Virus record (IMG/VR): IMGVR_UViG_3300045988_141143
Origin: a virus
Reading direction: 5' to 3' (one strand)
DNA length: 64,000 bases
Each line of letters begins with the position of its first letter. Within the stretch, counting starts at the first letter, position 1. The notes beneath the pieces are model-generated. The model saw nothing but the letters and a program-made list of their open reading frames with translations. It made no database searches and was not told the origin of the DNA. The position numbers and the translations under genes were made by a program. Positions 1 to 3,001 of the stretch are shown piece by piece.

Positions 1-70
1 ACTAAGCATATACTATATACTTTTAATTTTTTATATACTTTTGCAATACAAAATACTAATATTATACGTT

Positions 71-361
71 ATGAATAGGATAAAGCAAATACTAAAAGAA
101 CGCAATATTACGCAAAAGGAGTTCGCCGCCCTGCTTGGTATCTCTCCAGTCGGTTTATACCAGCAAATTAAAAAGCCATCTTATCCCACGTTAGAAAAGT
201 GGGCGGCCGTGCTTAATATTCCGATGTGGCAACTTTTCGCCAGCCCTGAAGAGGTTGCAGCCAACACGCAGCAGGAGGGGCAAGGCGTGCGCCTTGTGTG
301 TCCTCATTGCGGAAAACCTTTGCACATTGATTTAGCCAAGAGCGAAGTGTACCAAAATTAA
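71..361 (+). CDS. XRE-family HTH DNA-binding protein with C-terminal CPHCG zinc-ribbon-like tail
   Basis: HTH signature ITQKEFAALLGIS...IKKPSYPTLEKWAAVLNIPMWQLF. C-terminal CPHCGKP. The track ORF starts at 41; an internal Met at 71 (MNRIKQIL) is the more likely start. Confidence 0.55.
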   Translation: MNRIKQILKERNITQKEFAALLGISPVGLYQQIKKPSYPTLEKWAAVLNIPMWQLFASPEEVAANTQQEGQGVRLVCPHCGKPLHIDLAKSEVYQN

Positions 362-366
362 AAAAG

Positions 367-711
367 ATGAAATCATACATTAAAGATATACTAACCGAAA
401 AGGGCATTACACAAAAAGAACTCGCCCAGCGCCTCGACGTTAGACAAGCGACGATTTCCGCCGTAATCTCGCGGCCATCGTTTCCAACCTTGGAGCGCAT
501 CGCCGCCGCCTTGGATGTAGAGCCGTGGCAGCTCCTCGCCCCTCCTGCAGTTGTGGAGGAGGTGAAGCAAGCCAGGGCGCAGCGCGAAAGCGGTGTAGGT
601 GGTGCCCTGGTTGGTGTCGTGCGTGTCGGCGGTGAGATCTACACAGCCGACACCGTGCAACAGCTCCGCGCCATCGTGGAGAGGCTGGAGAGAGAAGAAG
701 CAAAGAAGTAA
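367..711 (+). CDS. XRE-family HTH DNA-binding protein
   Basis: ITQKELAQRLDVRQATISAVISRPSFPTLERIAAALDVEPWQLL is a paralog of the upstream HTH. The C-terminal LRAIVERLEREEAKK is partly duplicated at 1594-1620. Confidence 0.55.
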   Translation: MKSYIKDILTEKGITQKELAQRLDVRQATISAVISRPSFPTLERIAAALDVEPWQLLAPPAVVEEVKQARAQRESGVGGALVGVVRVGGEIYTADTVQQLRAIVERLEREEAKK

Positions 712-751
712 AAAACAAAAAAAATCCCGACAGGGTGCAAACCTTGTCGGG
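712..751 (-). terminator. Rho-independent terminator downstream of hicB
   Basis: Hairpin CCCGACAGG(725-733)/CTTGTCGGG(743-751), followed on the minus strand by T-run ATTTTTTTTGTTTTTT. Confidence 0.4.
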
Positions 752-796
752 AAAACTTCGGCTAATTTCCTAAGCTGTCAAACAAATAAAACTAAC

Positions 797-1204
797 CTAA
801 AGTATAACGGCCGCCGCCAACTCACGGGCAAAACGGTGCAAAGCGTTTATAATTTTCTCTTTCTGTGCCTGTCGCGGTTTCTTGCGTCCGTGCATATAGG
901 CCCATAGTTGTTTTTGATTTATCCCCGTGATACGCTCCATACCTGCAAGAGATATAAAACTACCGTAATAATACAAAAAGCTTTCGGTATCATACCGCCA
1001 TATAATTGTATATTCGCCAGCCTTCAGAGGTTCGGGCCAGTCCTCGCGCGGCATGTTCTTTTTTATTAACTCGATAGCTCGCACGGTGTCGGCCTTGCAT
1101 GCTTCCACGGTGTCACCAGCCGCCCAAATTCCGGGGCAATTCTCAGAGCATGCGCCGAAACTGTCGGCACTTGCAGAAATAAGCATTATAATTTCGTTTG
1201 CCAT
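797..1204 (-). CDS. hicB: HicB-family antitoxin
   Basis: N-terminal HicB/UPF0150-like segment ENCPGIWAAGDTVEACKADTVRAIELI plus a C-terminal basic DNA-binding tail. Lies immediately downstream of a HicA-like ORF. Confidence 0.65.
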   Translation of the reverse strand: MANEIIMLISASADSFGACSENCPGIWAAGDTVEACKADTVRAIELIKKNMPREDWPEPLKAGEYTIIWRYDTESFLYYYGSFISLAGMERITGINQKQLWAYMHGRKKPRQAQKEKIINALHRFARELAAAVIL

Positions 1205-1233
1205 ATCCTTATATATATTATTTCGTTTGTTAT

Positions 1234-1267
1234 GAAAGAGGAAAGGGGCGCGCCCCTTTCCTCTTTC
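1234..1267. repeat. Perfect 34-bp palindrome with 17-bp arms between hicA and hicB
   Basis: GAAAGAGGAAAGGGGCG|CGCCCCTTTCCTCTTTC, centred at 1250/1251. No adjacent T-run. Confidence 0.85.
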
Positions 1268-1272
1268 TTCTG

Positions 1273-1451
1273 CTAAATTCCAATCGCTCGCGCTATGCTC
1301 CGCCGTAACGGCTCGGGCACCTCCTTTGCCCCATGAAAGGGGACAGGGGCGAGAGCTTTCCGCCCTTGGTGTAAAAGTAGTGCGAGCCTTCGGCGTGGTC
1401 GAACTTCCAGCCCTTGGCCTTGATTCTTCGGTGAAATTCTGTGTACTTCAT
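1273..1451 (-). pseudogene. hicA: HicA-family mRNA interferase toxin with an apparent frameshift after about codon 31
   Basis: MKYTEFHRRIKAKGWKFDHAEGSHYFYTKGG matches the HicA N-terminus. The in-frame tail SPLSPFMGQRRCPSRYGGA ends at 1293, whereas another frame gives a HicA-like C-terminus KALAPVPFHGAKEVPEPLRRSIARAIGI ending at 1273. Confidence 0.5.
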
Positions 1452-2193
1452 TGCTTTATATGTTTTATTTGTTTGACGTTGCAAAGGTAGTAAAATTTCT
1501 ACCTTTTACCAAATATTTTTGCAATTATTTTTGCTTTCGTCATTATTTTTTTCTTTTCACCTTATTATATAGGCGCACGGCTGCACCTCTGCGCCATCGT
1601 CGAGAGGCTGGAGCAGGGCAGCACACCACCACCGCGGACTACTTCGCCACCGTTCAGGCATCCACAGCAGCCACCGACGAGCAACAGCACACACGACCGC
1701 CACACCCTCGCCCCGTCTGGTATGCCTCACGCCCTGAGCTGCGCACCCTCTCCCCATCCAGGGCGCACCCTCTACCGCCTGAGTGCGTCCGCATATATGA
1801 TAAGTTTTAGCTAAATCGGGTGCACGCAAGGCTCTCCAGTGCGGCGGCGCTCTCGCCTGTGAATCGAAGTTGCAAGGGAAGTTTGCAGGATGCGATTGCT
1901 CTAATTATCAATTATTTAGGTGTTCCTCTTGGGATGGCTTTTACAGGAGTGATTTTTAGTTAAGACATTGATTATTAACTATTTATAGGGGTAAAATAAT
2001 AATTCAGATACAACAAAAAAAATAGATAATATGCCTCTATTTTTACAAAAAAATACAAAAGAAAACTCTGCGAACAGATAAAACTATACTCTTTTGAACA
2101 GAAATAAACGTATATAATAATTATTTTTCAGAAAAACTTGCAAAATACAAATATATGTATTAACTTTGCAGCCAAAACAATACTAATATAAAC

Positions 2194-2487
2194 ATGAGAA
2201 CGAAAATAGACATTCGTCGCGCCATAAAAGAGCGCGGTTACACCATTACGTCTTTCTGTCAGAAGTTCGACCTAAAGACGCAGAACATCATTCAGAATTA
2301 CATCAAAGGCAACCCTACAATAAAACGTTTGGAAGACCTTTGCGAGAAACTGGATTGCGACATCACTGATTTGTTCTATCCAATAGGCGATTCGAGCGAT
2401 GCACAGTCTACTATCAACACCACCGCTTTATGTCCTCATTGTGGTGCAAAGGTTCGGGTCGGTGTGGTGCTCCTGCCCGAAGAATAA
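2194..2487 (+). CDS. XRE-family HTH DNA-binding protein with C-terminal CPHCG zinc-ribbon-like tail
   Basis: HTH signature ITSFCQKFDLKTQNIIQNYIKG. C-terminal CPHCGAKVRVG, paralogous to the ORF at 71-361. Confidence 0.55.
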   Translation: MRTKIDIRRAIKERGYTITSFCQKFDLKTQNIIQNYIKGNPTIKRLEDLCEKLDCDITDLFYPIGDSSDAQSTINTTALCPHCGAKVRVGVVLLPEE

Positions 2488-2557
2488 GAAAATCCCACGG
2501 CAAGTCTTTTTGTGCATGCCGTGGGAAATGTTAAGGCTTTTGTGTGCAAGCCAGCCT

Positions 2558-3001
2558 TTAAGACTCCAGCTCGCCGCCAGGTTTCTGACCGCCGCCTTCA
2601 GTGGTGGAGCCGCCGGGCTTCACGCCACCCGTGAGGTCGTTGCCGGCAAGGATGACCTTGAGGTCATCGGTGACGAGGGAGCGCATGTAGCTGTAGGGGT
2701 TGCCGATTTTGTGCTGCGCCTTGTAGGCCTTCATCACGGCGAGGTAAGCCTCCGTGCCCTTGGCCGACGTAGCCGACGGGCGGTTCTGCTTCCACCAAGA
2801 GGAGGCGAACTGCGATTTCTTCGTAAACGAAGATTTCACCGTCTGCTGTTTCTCACTGTTCGGCTGCACGCATCCGTGATAGCCAGCCGAATACATCTTA
2901 CCCGTGCGTTTGTTGACACCAATATAAGTAGTGTCCTTTTTGCACAGTTTGCCACTAATGGAACTAACCAAGTGGCTTGGAACAATCTTTGCCATACGCA
3001 A
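2558..3001 (-). CDS. Hypothetical protein with a Gly-rich acidic C-terminal tail shared with the HU-like protein at 24288-24839
   Basis: Ends TTEGGGQKPGGELES, compared with TTGGGEQKPGGNPPEIES in the HU-like protein. The 3-prime ~35 nt are ~85% identical between the two genes. The opposite-strand ORF 2399-3004 is low-complexity. Confidence 0.4.
   Translation of the reverse strand: MRMAKIVPSHLVSSISGKLCKKDTTYIGVNKRTGKMYSAGYHGCVQPNSEKQQTVKSSFTKKSQFASSWWKQNRPSATSAKGTEAYLAVMKAYKAQHKIGNPYSYMRSLVTDDLKVILAGNDLTGGVKPGGSTTEGGGQKPGGELES

What the first reader, a model, noticed from the sequence alone, without database searches (positions are those of the whole stretch)
797..1484. hicAB locus with an apparently frameshift-inactivated HicA toxin and a perfect 34-bp palindrome between the genes
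The HicA-like ORF matches the family for about 31 residues (..GSHYFYTKGG). It then continues in a frame that gives a non-homologous tail, while a different frame encodes a convincing HicA C-terminus (..VPFHGAKEVPEPLRRSIARAIGI) ending at 1273. The HicB antitoxin appears intact. Toxin decay with antitoxin retention is common in mobile elements. The 34-bp perfect palindrome (1234-1267) sits exactly between the toxin stop in the corrected frame and the hicB start. It could be an RNA processing or stability element, or a HicB operator.
Basis: partly seen in the sequence, partly recalled or inferred. Interest (0 to 1): 0.5.

Follow-up and report, generated by a model that had tools for sequence, protein, structure and literature searches.

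The report
Decayed phage hicAB with conserved RNA structures
A toxin-antitoxin gene pair carried by a gut Prevotella-type phage has lost its toxin to a one-base deletion. The palindrome between the two genes is a conserved RNA hairpin of a kind already shown to act as an internal terminator in plasmid hicAB, and the two ends of the operon's mRNA also appear to pair with each other.

Summary
hicA (minus strand, ATG 1451) is frameshifted. The window has C4 at 1346-1349 where ten close relatives have C5. Restoring one C gives a 59-aa protein that matches Pfam HicA_toxin end to end. The same allele is in two other, near-identical assemblies, so it is not an assembler slip. hicB (1204-797) is intact. 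Across 134 related loci hicA was inactivated at least 12 separate times while hicB stayed intact.

The perfect 34-bp palindrome (1234-1267) occurs only in this lineage. It is a perfected form of a 26-nt hairpin. A GC-rich hairpin at or just after the hicA stop codon is a family-wide feature. Its architecture matches the experimentally shown noncanonical internal terminator of IncI2 plasmid hicA^T B (Lin et al. 2025). It is unlikely to be the HicB operator. A better operator candidate, TAGAAAnnTTnCTA, overlaps the Bacteroidetes-type promoter at 1483-1506.

One new point emerged. The hicA 5'UTR (1462-1477) is perfectly complementary to a 16-mer just after the hicB stop (777-792). This pairing co-varies across clades, which suggests a hok-like 5'-3' fold-back in a type II operon. 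That reading is untested.

The parts
1510..1513 (-). -33-like TTTG of the hicA promoter
   Evidence: It lies 20 nt upstream of the -7 box and is conserved in relatives. Assignment is by consensus only.
1483..1506 (.). Inverted repeat AAAGGTAG-N8-CTACCTTT overlapping the -7 box. In relatives the equivalent is the palindrome TAGAAAnnTTnCTA. Candidate HicB operator.
   Evidence: Repeat I25. The motif is conserved and often duplicated in relatives. It occurs once in the 64-kb window. HicB binding is inferred.
1482..1489 (-). Bacteroidetes-type -7 promoter box TACCTTTG (TAnnTTTG)
   Evidence: Present at this position in 71 of 76 unique upstream regions. The consensus is cited in PMC4747536 and PMC12632263.
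1462..1477 (-). hicA 5'UTR arm GTCAAACAAATAAAAC. It starts 4 nt after the -7 box, near the predicted transcription start, and ends 10 nt before the ATG.
   Evidence: Perfect 16-nt complement of 777-792 (I2). Co-varies with that arm across clades.
1293..1451 (-). hicA as written: 52-codon frameshifted ORF
   Evidence: 20.4 bits, N-terminal half only.
1346..1349 (-). Frameshift site: C4 run where relatives have C5
   Evidence: Alignment A1. C5 in L052 with an identical HicB. C4 in L051 and L053.
1273..1345 (-). Out-of-frame remnant encoding the HicA C-terminus PVPFHGAKEVPEPLRRSIARAIGI plus its stop
1234..1267 (-). Junction hairpin, a perfect 34-nt palindrome. The conserved core is 1238-1263.
   Evidence: Terminator-like on both strands by the pattern scan.
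1205..1233 (-). A/U-rich unstructured leader of hicB
   Evidence: Unpaired in the minimum-energy folds. The median distance from hairpin to ATG is 35 nt in the family.
797..1204 (-). hicB antitoxin, 135 aa: HicB-like N-terminal domain plus XRE helix-turn-helix C-terminal domain
   Evidence: AlphaFold2 model with pLDDT 93. Foldseek top hits are HicB3 and HicB for the whole protein and HTH repressors for the C-terminal domain.
777..792 (-). 3'UTR arm GTTTTATTTGTTTGAC, starting 5 nt after the hicB stop codon. Pairs with the 5'UTR arm.
   Evidence: The 16-mer occurs only at these two places in the window.
717..752 (-). Canonical intrinsic terminator of the operon: 12-nt inverted-repeat arms (11 of 12 complementary), then U8
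   Evidence: Repeat I19. Fold. Conserved with compensatory changes in L002, L032 and L033.

Best explanation
This is a self-contained hicAB transcription unit (promoter, hicA, hairpin, hicB, terminator) carried as an accessory cassette in a tailed phage of gut Prevotella/Bacteroidales.

Toxin. In this lineage hicA has recently been killed by loss of one C from a C5 run. The antitoxin hicB and all the regulatory RNA elements are still intact.

Palindrome. It is the local, perfected version of a hairpin that this hicAB family keeps at the end of hicA. It most likely acts in the mRNA as a weak, noncanonical internal terminator or attenuator. That would set the ratio of hicA-only transcripts to hicA-hicB transcripts, as shown experimentally for IncI2 hicA^T B.

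Operator. HicB most likely represses transcription at a different palindrome that overlaps the promoter.

Fold-back. In read-through transcripts the very 5' end, which is the hicA leader, can pair with a 16-nt element just after hicB. This would close the mRNA into a panhandle. I infer that the panhandle masks the hicA translation start and/or protects the RNA ends, so that full-length mRNA yields mainly HicB.

Shown: the frameshift, the conservation and position of the hairpin, covariation of the two UTR arms, and the fold assignments. Inferred: termination, translational masking, and operator binding.
For: Frameshift:
- One base is missing relative to ten close relatives.
- Pfam scores 45.1 bits for the repaired protein against 20.4 bits as written.
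- L052 has an identical HicB next to an intact C5 hicA. The C4 allele is present in a Logan contig and an ENA contig.

Decay pattern:
- 94 loci intact and at least 12 independent lesions, with hicB always intact.

Hairpin:
- Present in most family members.
- It is the most stable 40-nt window of the operon in 50 of 80 unique modules. The junction is about a tenth of the operon's length.
- L032 and L033 have different sequences that still pair, and the L028/L031 group has sense-strand G:U pairs.
- In distant relatives and in pHNSHP45 the stop codon sits in the loop, for example ATGGCGGGGATTTAATCCCCGCC in pHNSHP45 and GCGATGGGGGTATAATCCCCATC in L037.
- Lin et al. 2025 showed about 10-fold more hicA than hicB mRNA, abolished by deleting the hairpin.

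Operator.

Panhandle:
- A 16-nt perfect match in the window.
- Cognate arms have a median of 16 nt against 10 nt for non-cognate pairings.
- 14 of 18 pairs change on both sides. 90% of cells are paired, against 76% in shuffles (0 of 500 shuffles reach the observed value) and 40-48% when the partner is slid.
- It appears in both the minimum-energy and centroid folds of the 763-nt mRNA.
- It co-occurs with a strong junction hairpin: 41 modules with both, 25 with neither, 11 discordant.

Phage context: and the IMG/VR relatives.
Against: - No transcript data exist for this family, so termination, processing and translation effects are all inferred.
- The U-tract after the hairpin is short and inconsistent. 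The mean is 2.6 T in 8 nt against a background of 2.05. In the window the U residues lie inside the extended stem.
- RNAalifold on an automatic alignment recovers only the 4-bp GGGG:CCCC core of the stop-overlapping hairpins.
- The panhandle alignment was anchored on the best complementary diagonal and used only loci that have the helix, so it leans towards the structure.
- The G:U against A:C counts are small, 4-5 against 1.
- One rumen clade and several other loci lack the panhandle.
- The co-occurrence test is not corrected for phylogeny.
- The three assemblies carrying C4 are nearly identical to one another. They may come from one strain or even one sample.
Confidence: 0.6

Rival explanations
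1. The junction hairpin is not a terminator. It is an RNA stability, processing or insulation element. It could be a barrier to 3' exonucleases that stabilises hicA RNA, a 5' cap-like stem for a processed hicB RNA, or a clamp that keeps the A/U-rich hicB leader unstructured.
For: The U-tract is weak and variable. The hairpin always lies 24-71 nt upstream of the hicB ATG, followed by an unpaired A/U-rich leader. No alternative hicB promoter is seen in the spacer, so read-through must be substantial. Lin et al. also reported an effect of the hairpin on HicB translation.
Against: The only experimental precedent with the same architecture behaves as a terminator. About two thirds of the strong hairpins have TTT directly after the GC core (sequences). 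This reading is not mutually exclusive with attenuation.
Confidence: 0.25
2. The 34-bp palindrome is a DNA site, either a HicB operator or another protein-binding or recombination site.
For: It is a perfect palindrome, and HicB has a helix-turn-helix domain.
Against: Its sequence is not conserved across the family, while its pairing is. Sense-strand G:U pairs would be C:A mismatches in a DNA cruciform or on the opposite strand. The perfect 34-bp form exists only in this lineage. A sequence-conserved palindrome sits at the promoter, where type II antitoxins usually bind.
Confidence: 0.05
3. The frameshift is a sequencing or assembly artefact and hicA is really intact.
For: It is a homopolymer-length difference. 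The window also differs from the two other assemblies by one homopolymer length at 2015.
Against: The same C4 is present in three assemblies built by different pipelines: the window, ENA ERZ1743998 NODE_346 at 28x coverage, and Logan SRR3993002. A C4/C5 miscall is unusual for short-read consensus. Many other independent hicA lesions exist in the family.
Confidence: 0.07
4. The inverted repeats flanking the operon (777-792 and 1462-1477) act at the DNA level. They could be recombination sites of an invertible or mobile cassette, or paired protein-binding sites, rather than an RNA-RNA interaction.
For: Bacteroidales are rich in inverted-repeat-flanked invertible segments (PMC4747536 and PMC8748976). 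Concerted change of two copies of a protein-binding site could mimic covariation.
Against: All 76 unique loci have the same orientation relative to promoter and terminator. The promoter lies outside the repeats yet is co-conserved with the cassette. There are no consistent target-site duplications. The arms are 14-25 nt long, non-palindromic and A-rich, which is longer than typical half-sites. The distance of the 3' arm from the hicB stop varies from 3 to 53 nt, while the 5' arm is fixed at the predicted transcript start. Mismatches are mostly G:U on the sense strand.
Confidence: 0.15
5. Full-length HicA is still made by programmed ribosomal frameshifting or transcriptional slippage at the C-run.
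For: A -1 shift at CCC-C would restore the frame. The stable hairpin lies downstream.
Against: All relatives encode hicA in a single frame. There is no canonical slippery heptamer. The hairpin is about 80 nt from the site. A C4 run is too short for efficient transcriptional slippage (established knowledge).
Confidence: 0.02

Closest known systems
HicA^T B of IncI2 plasmids such as pHNSHP45 (Lin et al., Nucleic Acids Res 2025, PMC11878559)
   Same: The toxin gene comes first and the ORFs do not overlap. A G/C-rich hairpin with a short UUU tract lies at the end of hicA, just upstream of the hicB start region. A canonical U8 terminator follows hicB. In distant Bacteroidales relatives the hairpin has the identical layout: the codons for ..MG(I/L/V) form the 5' arm, the stop codon is in the loop, and the 3' arm follows. 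HicA is homologous, 32% identical.
   Different: In the window's clade the hairpin lies wholly downstream of the stop codon and is longer, 11-15 bp. HicB here carries an XRE helix-turn-helix domain and is not detectably similar in sequence to pHNSHP45 HicB. The host is a Bacteroidales phage with a different promoter type. By eye, pHNSHP45 shows no 5'UTR-3'UTR complementarity. Nothing here has been tested experimentally.
E. coli K-12 hicAB (Turnbull and Gerdes 2017, as cited in PMC11878559)
   Same: A HicA RNase toxin with a HicB antitoxin that also represses the promoter. The gene order is toxin first.
   Different: The K-12 system uses two promoters to favour HicB. Here a single consensus promoter is seen, and the T:A balance is proposed to be set by RNA structure.
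tac/fbi fold-back of hok mRNA, a type I toxin-antitoxin system (Thisted et al. 1995; summarised in PMC9841398)
   Same: A long-range pairing between the 5' and 3' untranslated ends closes the full-length toxin mRNA. In hok this keeps it translationally inert. Here a co-varying 14-25-nt pairing joins the predicted 5' end to the 3'UTR.
   Different: This is an analogy only. There is no sequence relation, the system here is type II, the closed RNA also encodes the antitoxin, and no processing step or antisense RNA is known.
icaR 5'UTR-3'UTR pairing in Staphylococcus aureus (PMC3868564)
   Same: The 3'UTR pairs with the translation initiation region of the same mRNA.
   Different: That case involves a different gene and organism, and the pairing targets a Shine-Dalgarno sequence. 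Here the target is an A-rich Bacteroidetes leader.

Membership tests
HicA toxin (Pfam PF07927) | Full-length match to the family profile above the curated cut-off | tested here: met
   The repaired 59-aa sequence scores 45.1 bits (cut-off 27) over profile positions 3-58 of 58. The ORF as written fails, at 20.4 bits over positions 3-30. It is 40-47% identical to annotated plasmid HicA toxins.
HicA toxin (Pfam PF07927) | Conserved Gly-Ser-His catalytic motif in the N-terminal half | tested here: met
   GSHYFY is retained upstream of the frameshift and aligns with SSHQIW of pHNSHP45 HicA. The role of the His residue is established knowledge for HicA.
HicA toxin (Pfam PF07927) | RNase activity and toxicity neutralised by HicB | not testable with these tools
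   Needs expression assays. The window allele lacks the C-terminal 23 residues in frame and is predicted to be inactive.
HicB antitoxin | Sequence-profile match to HicB or UPF0150 families | tested here: not met
   Pfam UPF0150 scores only 19.7 bits against a cut-off of 27.3. There is no NCBIfam hit and no PDB sequence hit with a 13-sequence profile. Homologues carry no Pfam domain, and a few are named 'RNase H-like HicB family nuclease' by JGI.
HicB antitoxin | N-terminal HicB (partial RNase H-like) fold | tested here: inconclusive
   The AlphaFold2 model has pLDDT 93.3. The Foldseek PDB top hits are HicB3 6u0i (E 4.8e-3, probability 0.95), E. coli HicB 6hpb and B. pseudomallei HicB 6g26. Whole-chain TM-scores are low, about 0.3, because the C-terminal domains differ. 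TTHA1013 and TTHA0281 match the N-terminal domain, with TM-scores normalised to the target of 0.4-0.6.
HicB antitoxin | C-terminal DNA-binding domain | tested here: met
   Residues from about 73 to 131 superpose on XRE-type HTH proteins (HipB, C.Kpn2I, DdrO, P2 C) at 1.3-2.2 Å rmsd and target-normalised TM-scores of about 0.6.
HicB antitoxin | Encoded immediately downstream of hicA in one operon | tested here: met
   The arrangement is conserved in 94 or more loci.
hicA^T B-type internal terminator (Lin et al. 2025) | G/C-rich hairpin between the end of hicA and the hicB start region | tested here: met
   for the window.
hicA^T B-type internal terminator (Lin et al. 2025) | Short U tract directly after the G/C stem | tested here: inconclusive
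   In the window GGGGCGCGCCCC is followed by UUUCCUCUUUC, but these bases pair with the A/G-rich 5' flank. Family-wide T enrichment after the stem is weak. The pattern scan calls it terminator-like on both strands.
hicA^T B-type internal terminator (Lin et al. 2025) | Causes transcription termination and an excess of hicA over hicB RNA | not testable with these tools
   Needs RNA-seq, Term-seq or in vitro transcription.
Bacteroidales invertible segment (inverton) | Both orientations of the repeat-flanked segment occur | tested here: not met
   All 76 unique loci have the promoter upstream of hicA in the same orientation. Assemblies report only the majority orientation, so this is weak negative evidence.
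hok-like 5'-3' fold-back (functional analogy, not homology) | Complementarity between the mRNA 5' end and the 3'UTR, maintained by compensatory change | tested here: met
   (14 of 18 pairs changed on both sides; 0 of 500 shuffles reach the observed value). Predicted in the minimum-energy and centroid folds.
hok-like 5'-3' fold-back (functional analogy, not homology) | The pairing blocks toxin translation | not testable with these tools
   The arm covers positions -26 to -11 relative to the hicA ATG. The effect on initiation is inferred.

The most novel reading that the evidence does not exclude
This Bacteroidales and phage hicAB family adds an RNA layer to a protein (type II) toxin-antitoxin system. 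An internal hairpin splits transcription into hicA-only RNAs and full-length RNAs. In the full-length RNA the 3'UTR folds back onto the very 5' end and masks the toxin's translation start, so that this RNA yields antitoxin only. Alternatively, the 3'UTR acts in trans after processing, as a 3'UTR-derived antisense RNA. Either way this would be a hok-like fold-back control operating in a type II operon. It would offer one answer to how toxin-first operons avoid making too much toxin.
Probability: 0.35. Interest if true: 0.7.

Novelty: new variant of a known kind. Interest (0 to 1): 0.5.

Why it matters
The frameshift itself is an ordinary example of toxin decay. Its main value is as one data point in a clear pattern: phages keep HicB while repeatedly losing HicA. 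That pattern hints that the antitoxin has a use of its own, such as anti-addiction, counter-defence or regulation.

The hairpin extends an experimentally defined mechanism, the internal terminator of plasmid hicA^T B, to a distant phylum and to phages. The same stop-codon-in-loop layout appears in both, which suggests the feature is old or repeatedly selected.

The co-varying pairing of 5'UTR and 3'UTR is the part that could change thinking. It gives a testable RNA-based explanation for how a toxin-first type II operon sets its toxin:antitoxin ratio.

Tried and rejected
- Programmed -1 frameshift at GGA-AAG. This was my first guess for the shift site. I rejected it once relatives showed the lesion is a missing C further downstream and that all relatives are in a single frame.
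- Attenuator-like alternative pairing between hicA 1335-1351 and the 5' arm of the hairpin (I4 and D6). It is not in the predicted fold, and I did not test it across clades. I kept it only as a possible mutational template.
- Known RNA families. Rfam gives only sub-threshold microRNA-like hits on the palindrome.
- A separate promoter for hicB in the spacer, or for a 3'UTR small RNA inside the end of hicB. There is no conserved TAnnTTTG.
- The 16-mer as a dispersed repeat. It occurs only twice in the window.
- TGA-to-Trp recoding as an explanation for TGA at Trp15 in L002, L018 and L112. The adjacent hicB genes have no in-frame stops, so these are read as nonsense mutations.
- Megablast against GenBank phages found nothing.
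- RNAalifold on an automatic alignment of the stop-overlapping hairpins recovered only the 4-bp core.
- Literature searches for a 5'-3' fold-back in type II systems, or for hicAB in Bacteroides phages, found nothing relevant.
Full report
**The observation.** The region 797-1484 carries a toxin-first hicAB pair on the minus strand. From the ATG at 1451 the 0-frame reads MKYTEFHRRIKAKGWKFDHAEGSHYFYTKGGKLSP and then runs into an unrelated tail, stopping at 1295-1293. A second frame encodes PVPFHGAKEVPEPLRRSIARAIGI and stops at 1275-1273. Pfam HicA_toxin scores the ORF as written at 20.4 bits, below its cut-off and covering only the N-terminal half of the profile. A one-base repair scores 45.1 bits over profile positions 3-58 of 58. 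hicB (1204-797, 135 aa) is uninterrupted. Positions 1234-1267 form a perfect 17+17 palindrome. As RNA it folds at -27.3 kcal/mol, z = -6.1.

**The lesion.** I collected 134 related loci: one-genome-per-species contigs, IMG/VR viral contigs, metagenome contigs and exact-protein look-ups. Aligning the closest ones shows that the window has GCCCCT where ten relatives have GCCCCCT. The frameshift is therefore loss of one C from a C5 run, at window 1346-1349. L052 encodes a HicB identical to the window's next to an intact C5 hicA.

**Is the allele real?** The C4 allele is also present in a Logan assembly of SRR3993002 (L051) and in ENA ERZ1743998 NODE_346 (L053). Apart from L053's contig end, these two differ from the window only by one homopolymer length at 2015. 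They therefore show that the allele survives different assemblers. They do not show that it circulates in several hosts. The out-of-frame C-terminus differs from relatives by a single residue, so the inactivation is recent.

**Toxin decay is the rule in this family.** Of the loci where the state could be judged, 94 have an intact hicA. The rest carry the following lesions, with hicB always intact:

- Nonsense codons: TGA at Trp15 in L002 and in L018/L112, TGA at residue 28 in L081, and TAG at residue 16 in L086.
- Other frameshifts: L003/L077, L017/L120 and L113.
- Truncations and internal deletions: L049/L103, L058 and L097.
- Deletions that remove the promoter, hicA and half of the hairpin: L001/L072.
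- Clean deletions that join the hicA promoter directly to hicB: L074 and L078.
- hicA absent altogether: L005/L083 and L098/L099.

Two database proteins are HicA'-HicB fusions created by further lesions.

**Family membership.** The repaired HicA is 40-47% identical to annotated plasmid HicA toxins and 32% identical to pHNSHP45 HicA. The antitoxin is not recognised by Pfam, NCBIfam or a PDB sequence search. An AlphaFold2 model built on 28 homologues has pLDDT 93. Its best PDB matches are HicB3 and HicB structures for the whole chain, with weak E-values. The C-terminal half superposes on XRE-type helix-turn-helix repressors at 1.3-2.2 Å. I read it as a HicB-like N-terminal domain fused to an HTH domain. 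The window is a tailed-phage genome, with a tape measure protein, tail fibre and head protease. Close relatives are 69-100 kb viral contigs and Prevotella bins.

**The palindrome is a conserved RNA hairpin.** The perfect 34-bp form exists only in the frameshifted lineage. Sister phages read ...CCTCCATC where the window reads ...CCTCTTTC, which gives them a 26-nt perfect hairpin. The family as a whole keeps a GC-rich hairpin at this junction, and its sequence varies:

- L032 has a different perfect palindrome, GAGAGGGAAGGGCTAGCCCTTCCCTCTC.
- L033 and L002 have others.
- The L028/L031 group keeps the stem through G:U pairs. These pair only in the sense-strand RNA.
- In more distant clades the 5' arm is the coding sequence for the last residues..MG(I/L/V). 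The stop codon sits in the loop and the 3' arm follows.

In 50 of 80 unique modules the most stable 40-nt window of the whole operon lies at this junction, which is about a tenth of the operon's length.

**Precedent.** Lin et al. 2025 described exactly this in IncI2 plasmids. [quoted passage not shown] It gives about 10-fold more hicA than hicB RNA and lowers HicB output. I fetched pHNSHP45. Its junction, ATGGCGGGGATTTAATCCCCGCCGACTTTGGAGG, has the same stop-in-loop layout, followed after hicB by a canonical U8 terminator as in the window. The most likely function here is therefore an internal attenuator.

**Caveats on the terminator reading.** U-richness after the stem is weak across the family. 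RNAalifold recovers only the 4-bp core from an automatic alignment. No RNA data exist for this family. A stability or insulation role is a live alternative and could coexist with attenuation.

**The operator is probably elsewhere.** TAnnTTTG, the Bacteroidetes -7 promoter box, lies about 30 nt upstream of the hicA ATG in 71 of 76 unique loci. It is preceded by a TTTG at -33 spacing. A sequence-conserved palindrome, TAGAAAnnTTnCTA, overlaps it and is often present twice. In the window this is AAAGGTAG-N8-CTACCTTT at 1483-1506, and the motif is unique in the 64 kb. This is where an autorepressing HTH antitoxin would be expected to bind. By contrast, the junction hairpin conserves pairing rather than sequence.

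**An unexpected second structure.** The repeat search also found a perfect 16-nt inverted repeat that brackets the operon. One arm, GTCAAACAAATAAAAC at 1477-1462, lies in the hicA leader and starts 4 nt after the -7 box, at about the predicted transcription start. Its complement lies at 792-777, starting 5 nt after the hicB stop and upstream of the terminator. Both arms are therefore in the transcript. Evidence that the pairing is selected:

- The 16-mer occurs nowhere else in the window.
- The pairing is present in most clades with different sequences: GTGTCAAATCAATAACGA, TGTCAATTAAAACAAG, TACCAAACAAATAA, TGTCAAACAAAAACAAAG, and a 25-nt version in L123.
- Cognate arms give a median ungapped helix of 16 nt. 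Arms taken from loci with a different leader type give 10 nt.
- On an ungapped 21-sequence alignment, 14 of 18 pairs show changes on both sides. 90% of cells pair, against 76% in shuffles (0 of 500 shuffles reach the observed value) and 40-48% when the partner is slid by 1-3 columns.
- Mismatches inside the helices are mostly G:U on the sense strand, 4-5 against 1 A:C.
- The minimum-energy and centroid folds of the 763-nt mRNA both close with this helix.

**DNA-level readings of the repeat are less likely.** No locus shows the segment inverted. The promoter lies outside the repeats yet is co-conserved with the cassette. No conserved antisense or internal promoter is present. The panhandle and a strong junction hairpin tend to occur together: 41 modules have both, 25 have neither and 11 are discordant. 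That test is not corrected for phylogeny.

**How it most likely works.**

- Shown: a single consensus promoter, a hairpin after hicA, an open A/U-rich hicB leader, a 3' arm complementary to the 5' end, and a strong terminator.
- Inferred: some transcripts end at the hairpin and are hicA-only with a free leader. Read-through transcripts acquire the 3' arm, which pairs with positions -26 to -11 of the hicA leader. In Bacteroidetes, where initiation depends on an unstructured A-rich leader (established knowledge), this should shut off hicA translation while leaving hicB open. It should also protect the RNA ends.

The closest analogy is the tac/fbi fold-back of hok mRNA and the icaR UTR pairing. 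A search of open-access full text (PubMed Central Creative Commons papers and bioRxiv preprints) found no description of such a fold-back in a type II system. In the window all these RNA elements are intact, so only the toxin's coding capacity has been lost.

**Verdict.** The finding is real and mostly correctly read. The frameshift is ordinary, and the hairpin is a new member of a mechanism described in 2025. The co-varying 5'-3' pairing is a candidate new regulatory variant and the reason for a middling rather than low score.

Noticed in passing
window 1234-1267 and 1333-1351: Only the frameshifted lineage has the palindrome perfected. Two adjacent substitutions, CA to TT, change the sister phages' CCTCCATC into CCTCTTTC. 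The lost C in hicA also makes 1333-1351 more similar to a palindrome arm (17 of 19). Both changes increase complementarity to the same arm, as expected for template-switch (quasipalindrome) mutagenesis. Simple slippage is equally possible.
   Followed up: partly
window 661-690 and 1584-1613: A 30-nt direct repeat, 90% identical, brackets the whole hicAB cassette. The first copy is the C-terminal coding end of the HTH gene 367-711 (..AIVERLE..). The second is an ORF-less remnant of the same gene end. This suggests the cassette was inserted or recombined into that gene's 3' end. The repeat is also present in L026, L027 and L034.
   Followed up: partly
window 41-361, 367-711 and 2194-2487: Three small XRE-type helix-turn-helix genes flank the cassette. 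Two of them have weak zinc-ribbon-like C-terminal matches. This may be the phage's regulatory region.
   Followed up: no
L074 about 1440-1503; L078 about 310-372: In these relatives hicA and the hairpin are cleanly deleted, so the hicA promoter and leader drive hicB directly. This is an orphan antitoxin with the toxin's promoter.
   Followed up: partly
L002, L018 and L112 (hicA codon 15): The same Trp codon is TGA in two unrelated clades. The adjacent hicB genes have no in-frame stops, so I read these as recurrent nonsense mutations rather than TGA-to-Trp recoding. I did not examine the contigs' other genes.
   Followed up: partly
proteins P0001 (206 aa) and P0003 (217 aa): These are database ORFs in which a damaged hicA reads through the hairpin and spacer in frame into hicB, giving HicA'-HicB fusion proteins.
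   Followed up: partly
L051 (Logan SRR3993002 contig), window 1238-2624: The contig ends inside the palindrome, which shows that the perfect palindrome breaks short-read assembly graphs.
   Followed up: yes
window 2015: This is the only internal difference between the window and the two other assemblies of this strain. It is a one-base length difference in a T-run on the plus strand. Homopolymer lengths in this sequence are therefore not all secure.
   Followed up: no
L033 6451-6630 and 7354-7533; L035 6934-7116; L036 7432-7611; L008 4605-4739: Related contigs carry further, divergent hicA-like genes 2.5-3.6 kb downstream of hicB (0.7 kb upstream of hicA in L008). The window itself has only one hicA locus.
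   Followed up: no
L020, L022 and L023: Only the C-terminal half of hicB is left in L020 and L022, so the whole cassette can also decay. L023's match starts at the contig end, so its state is unknown.
   Followed up: no
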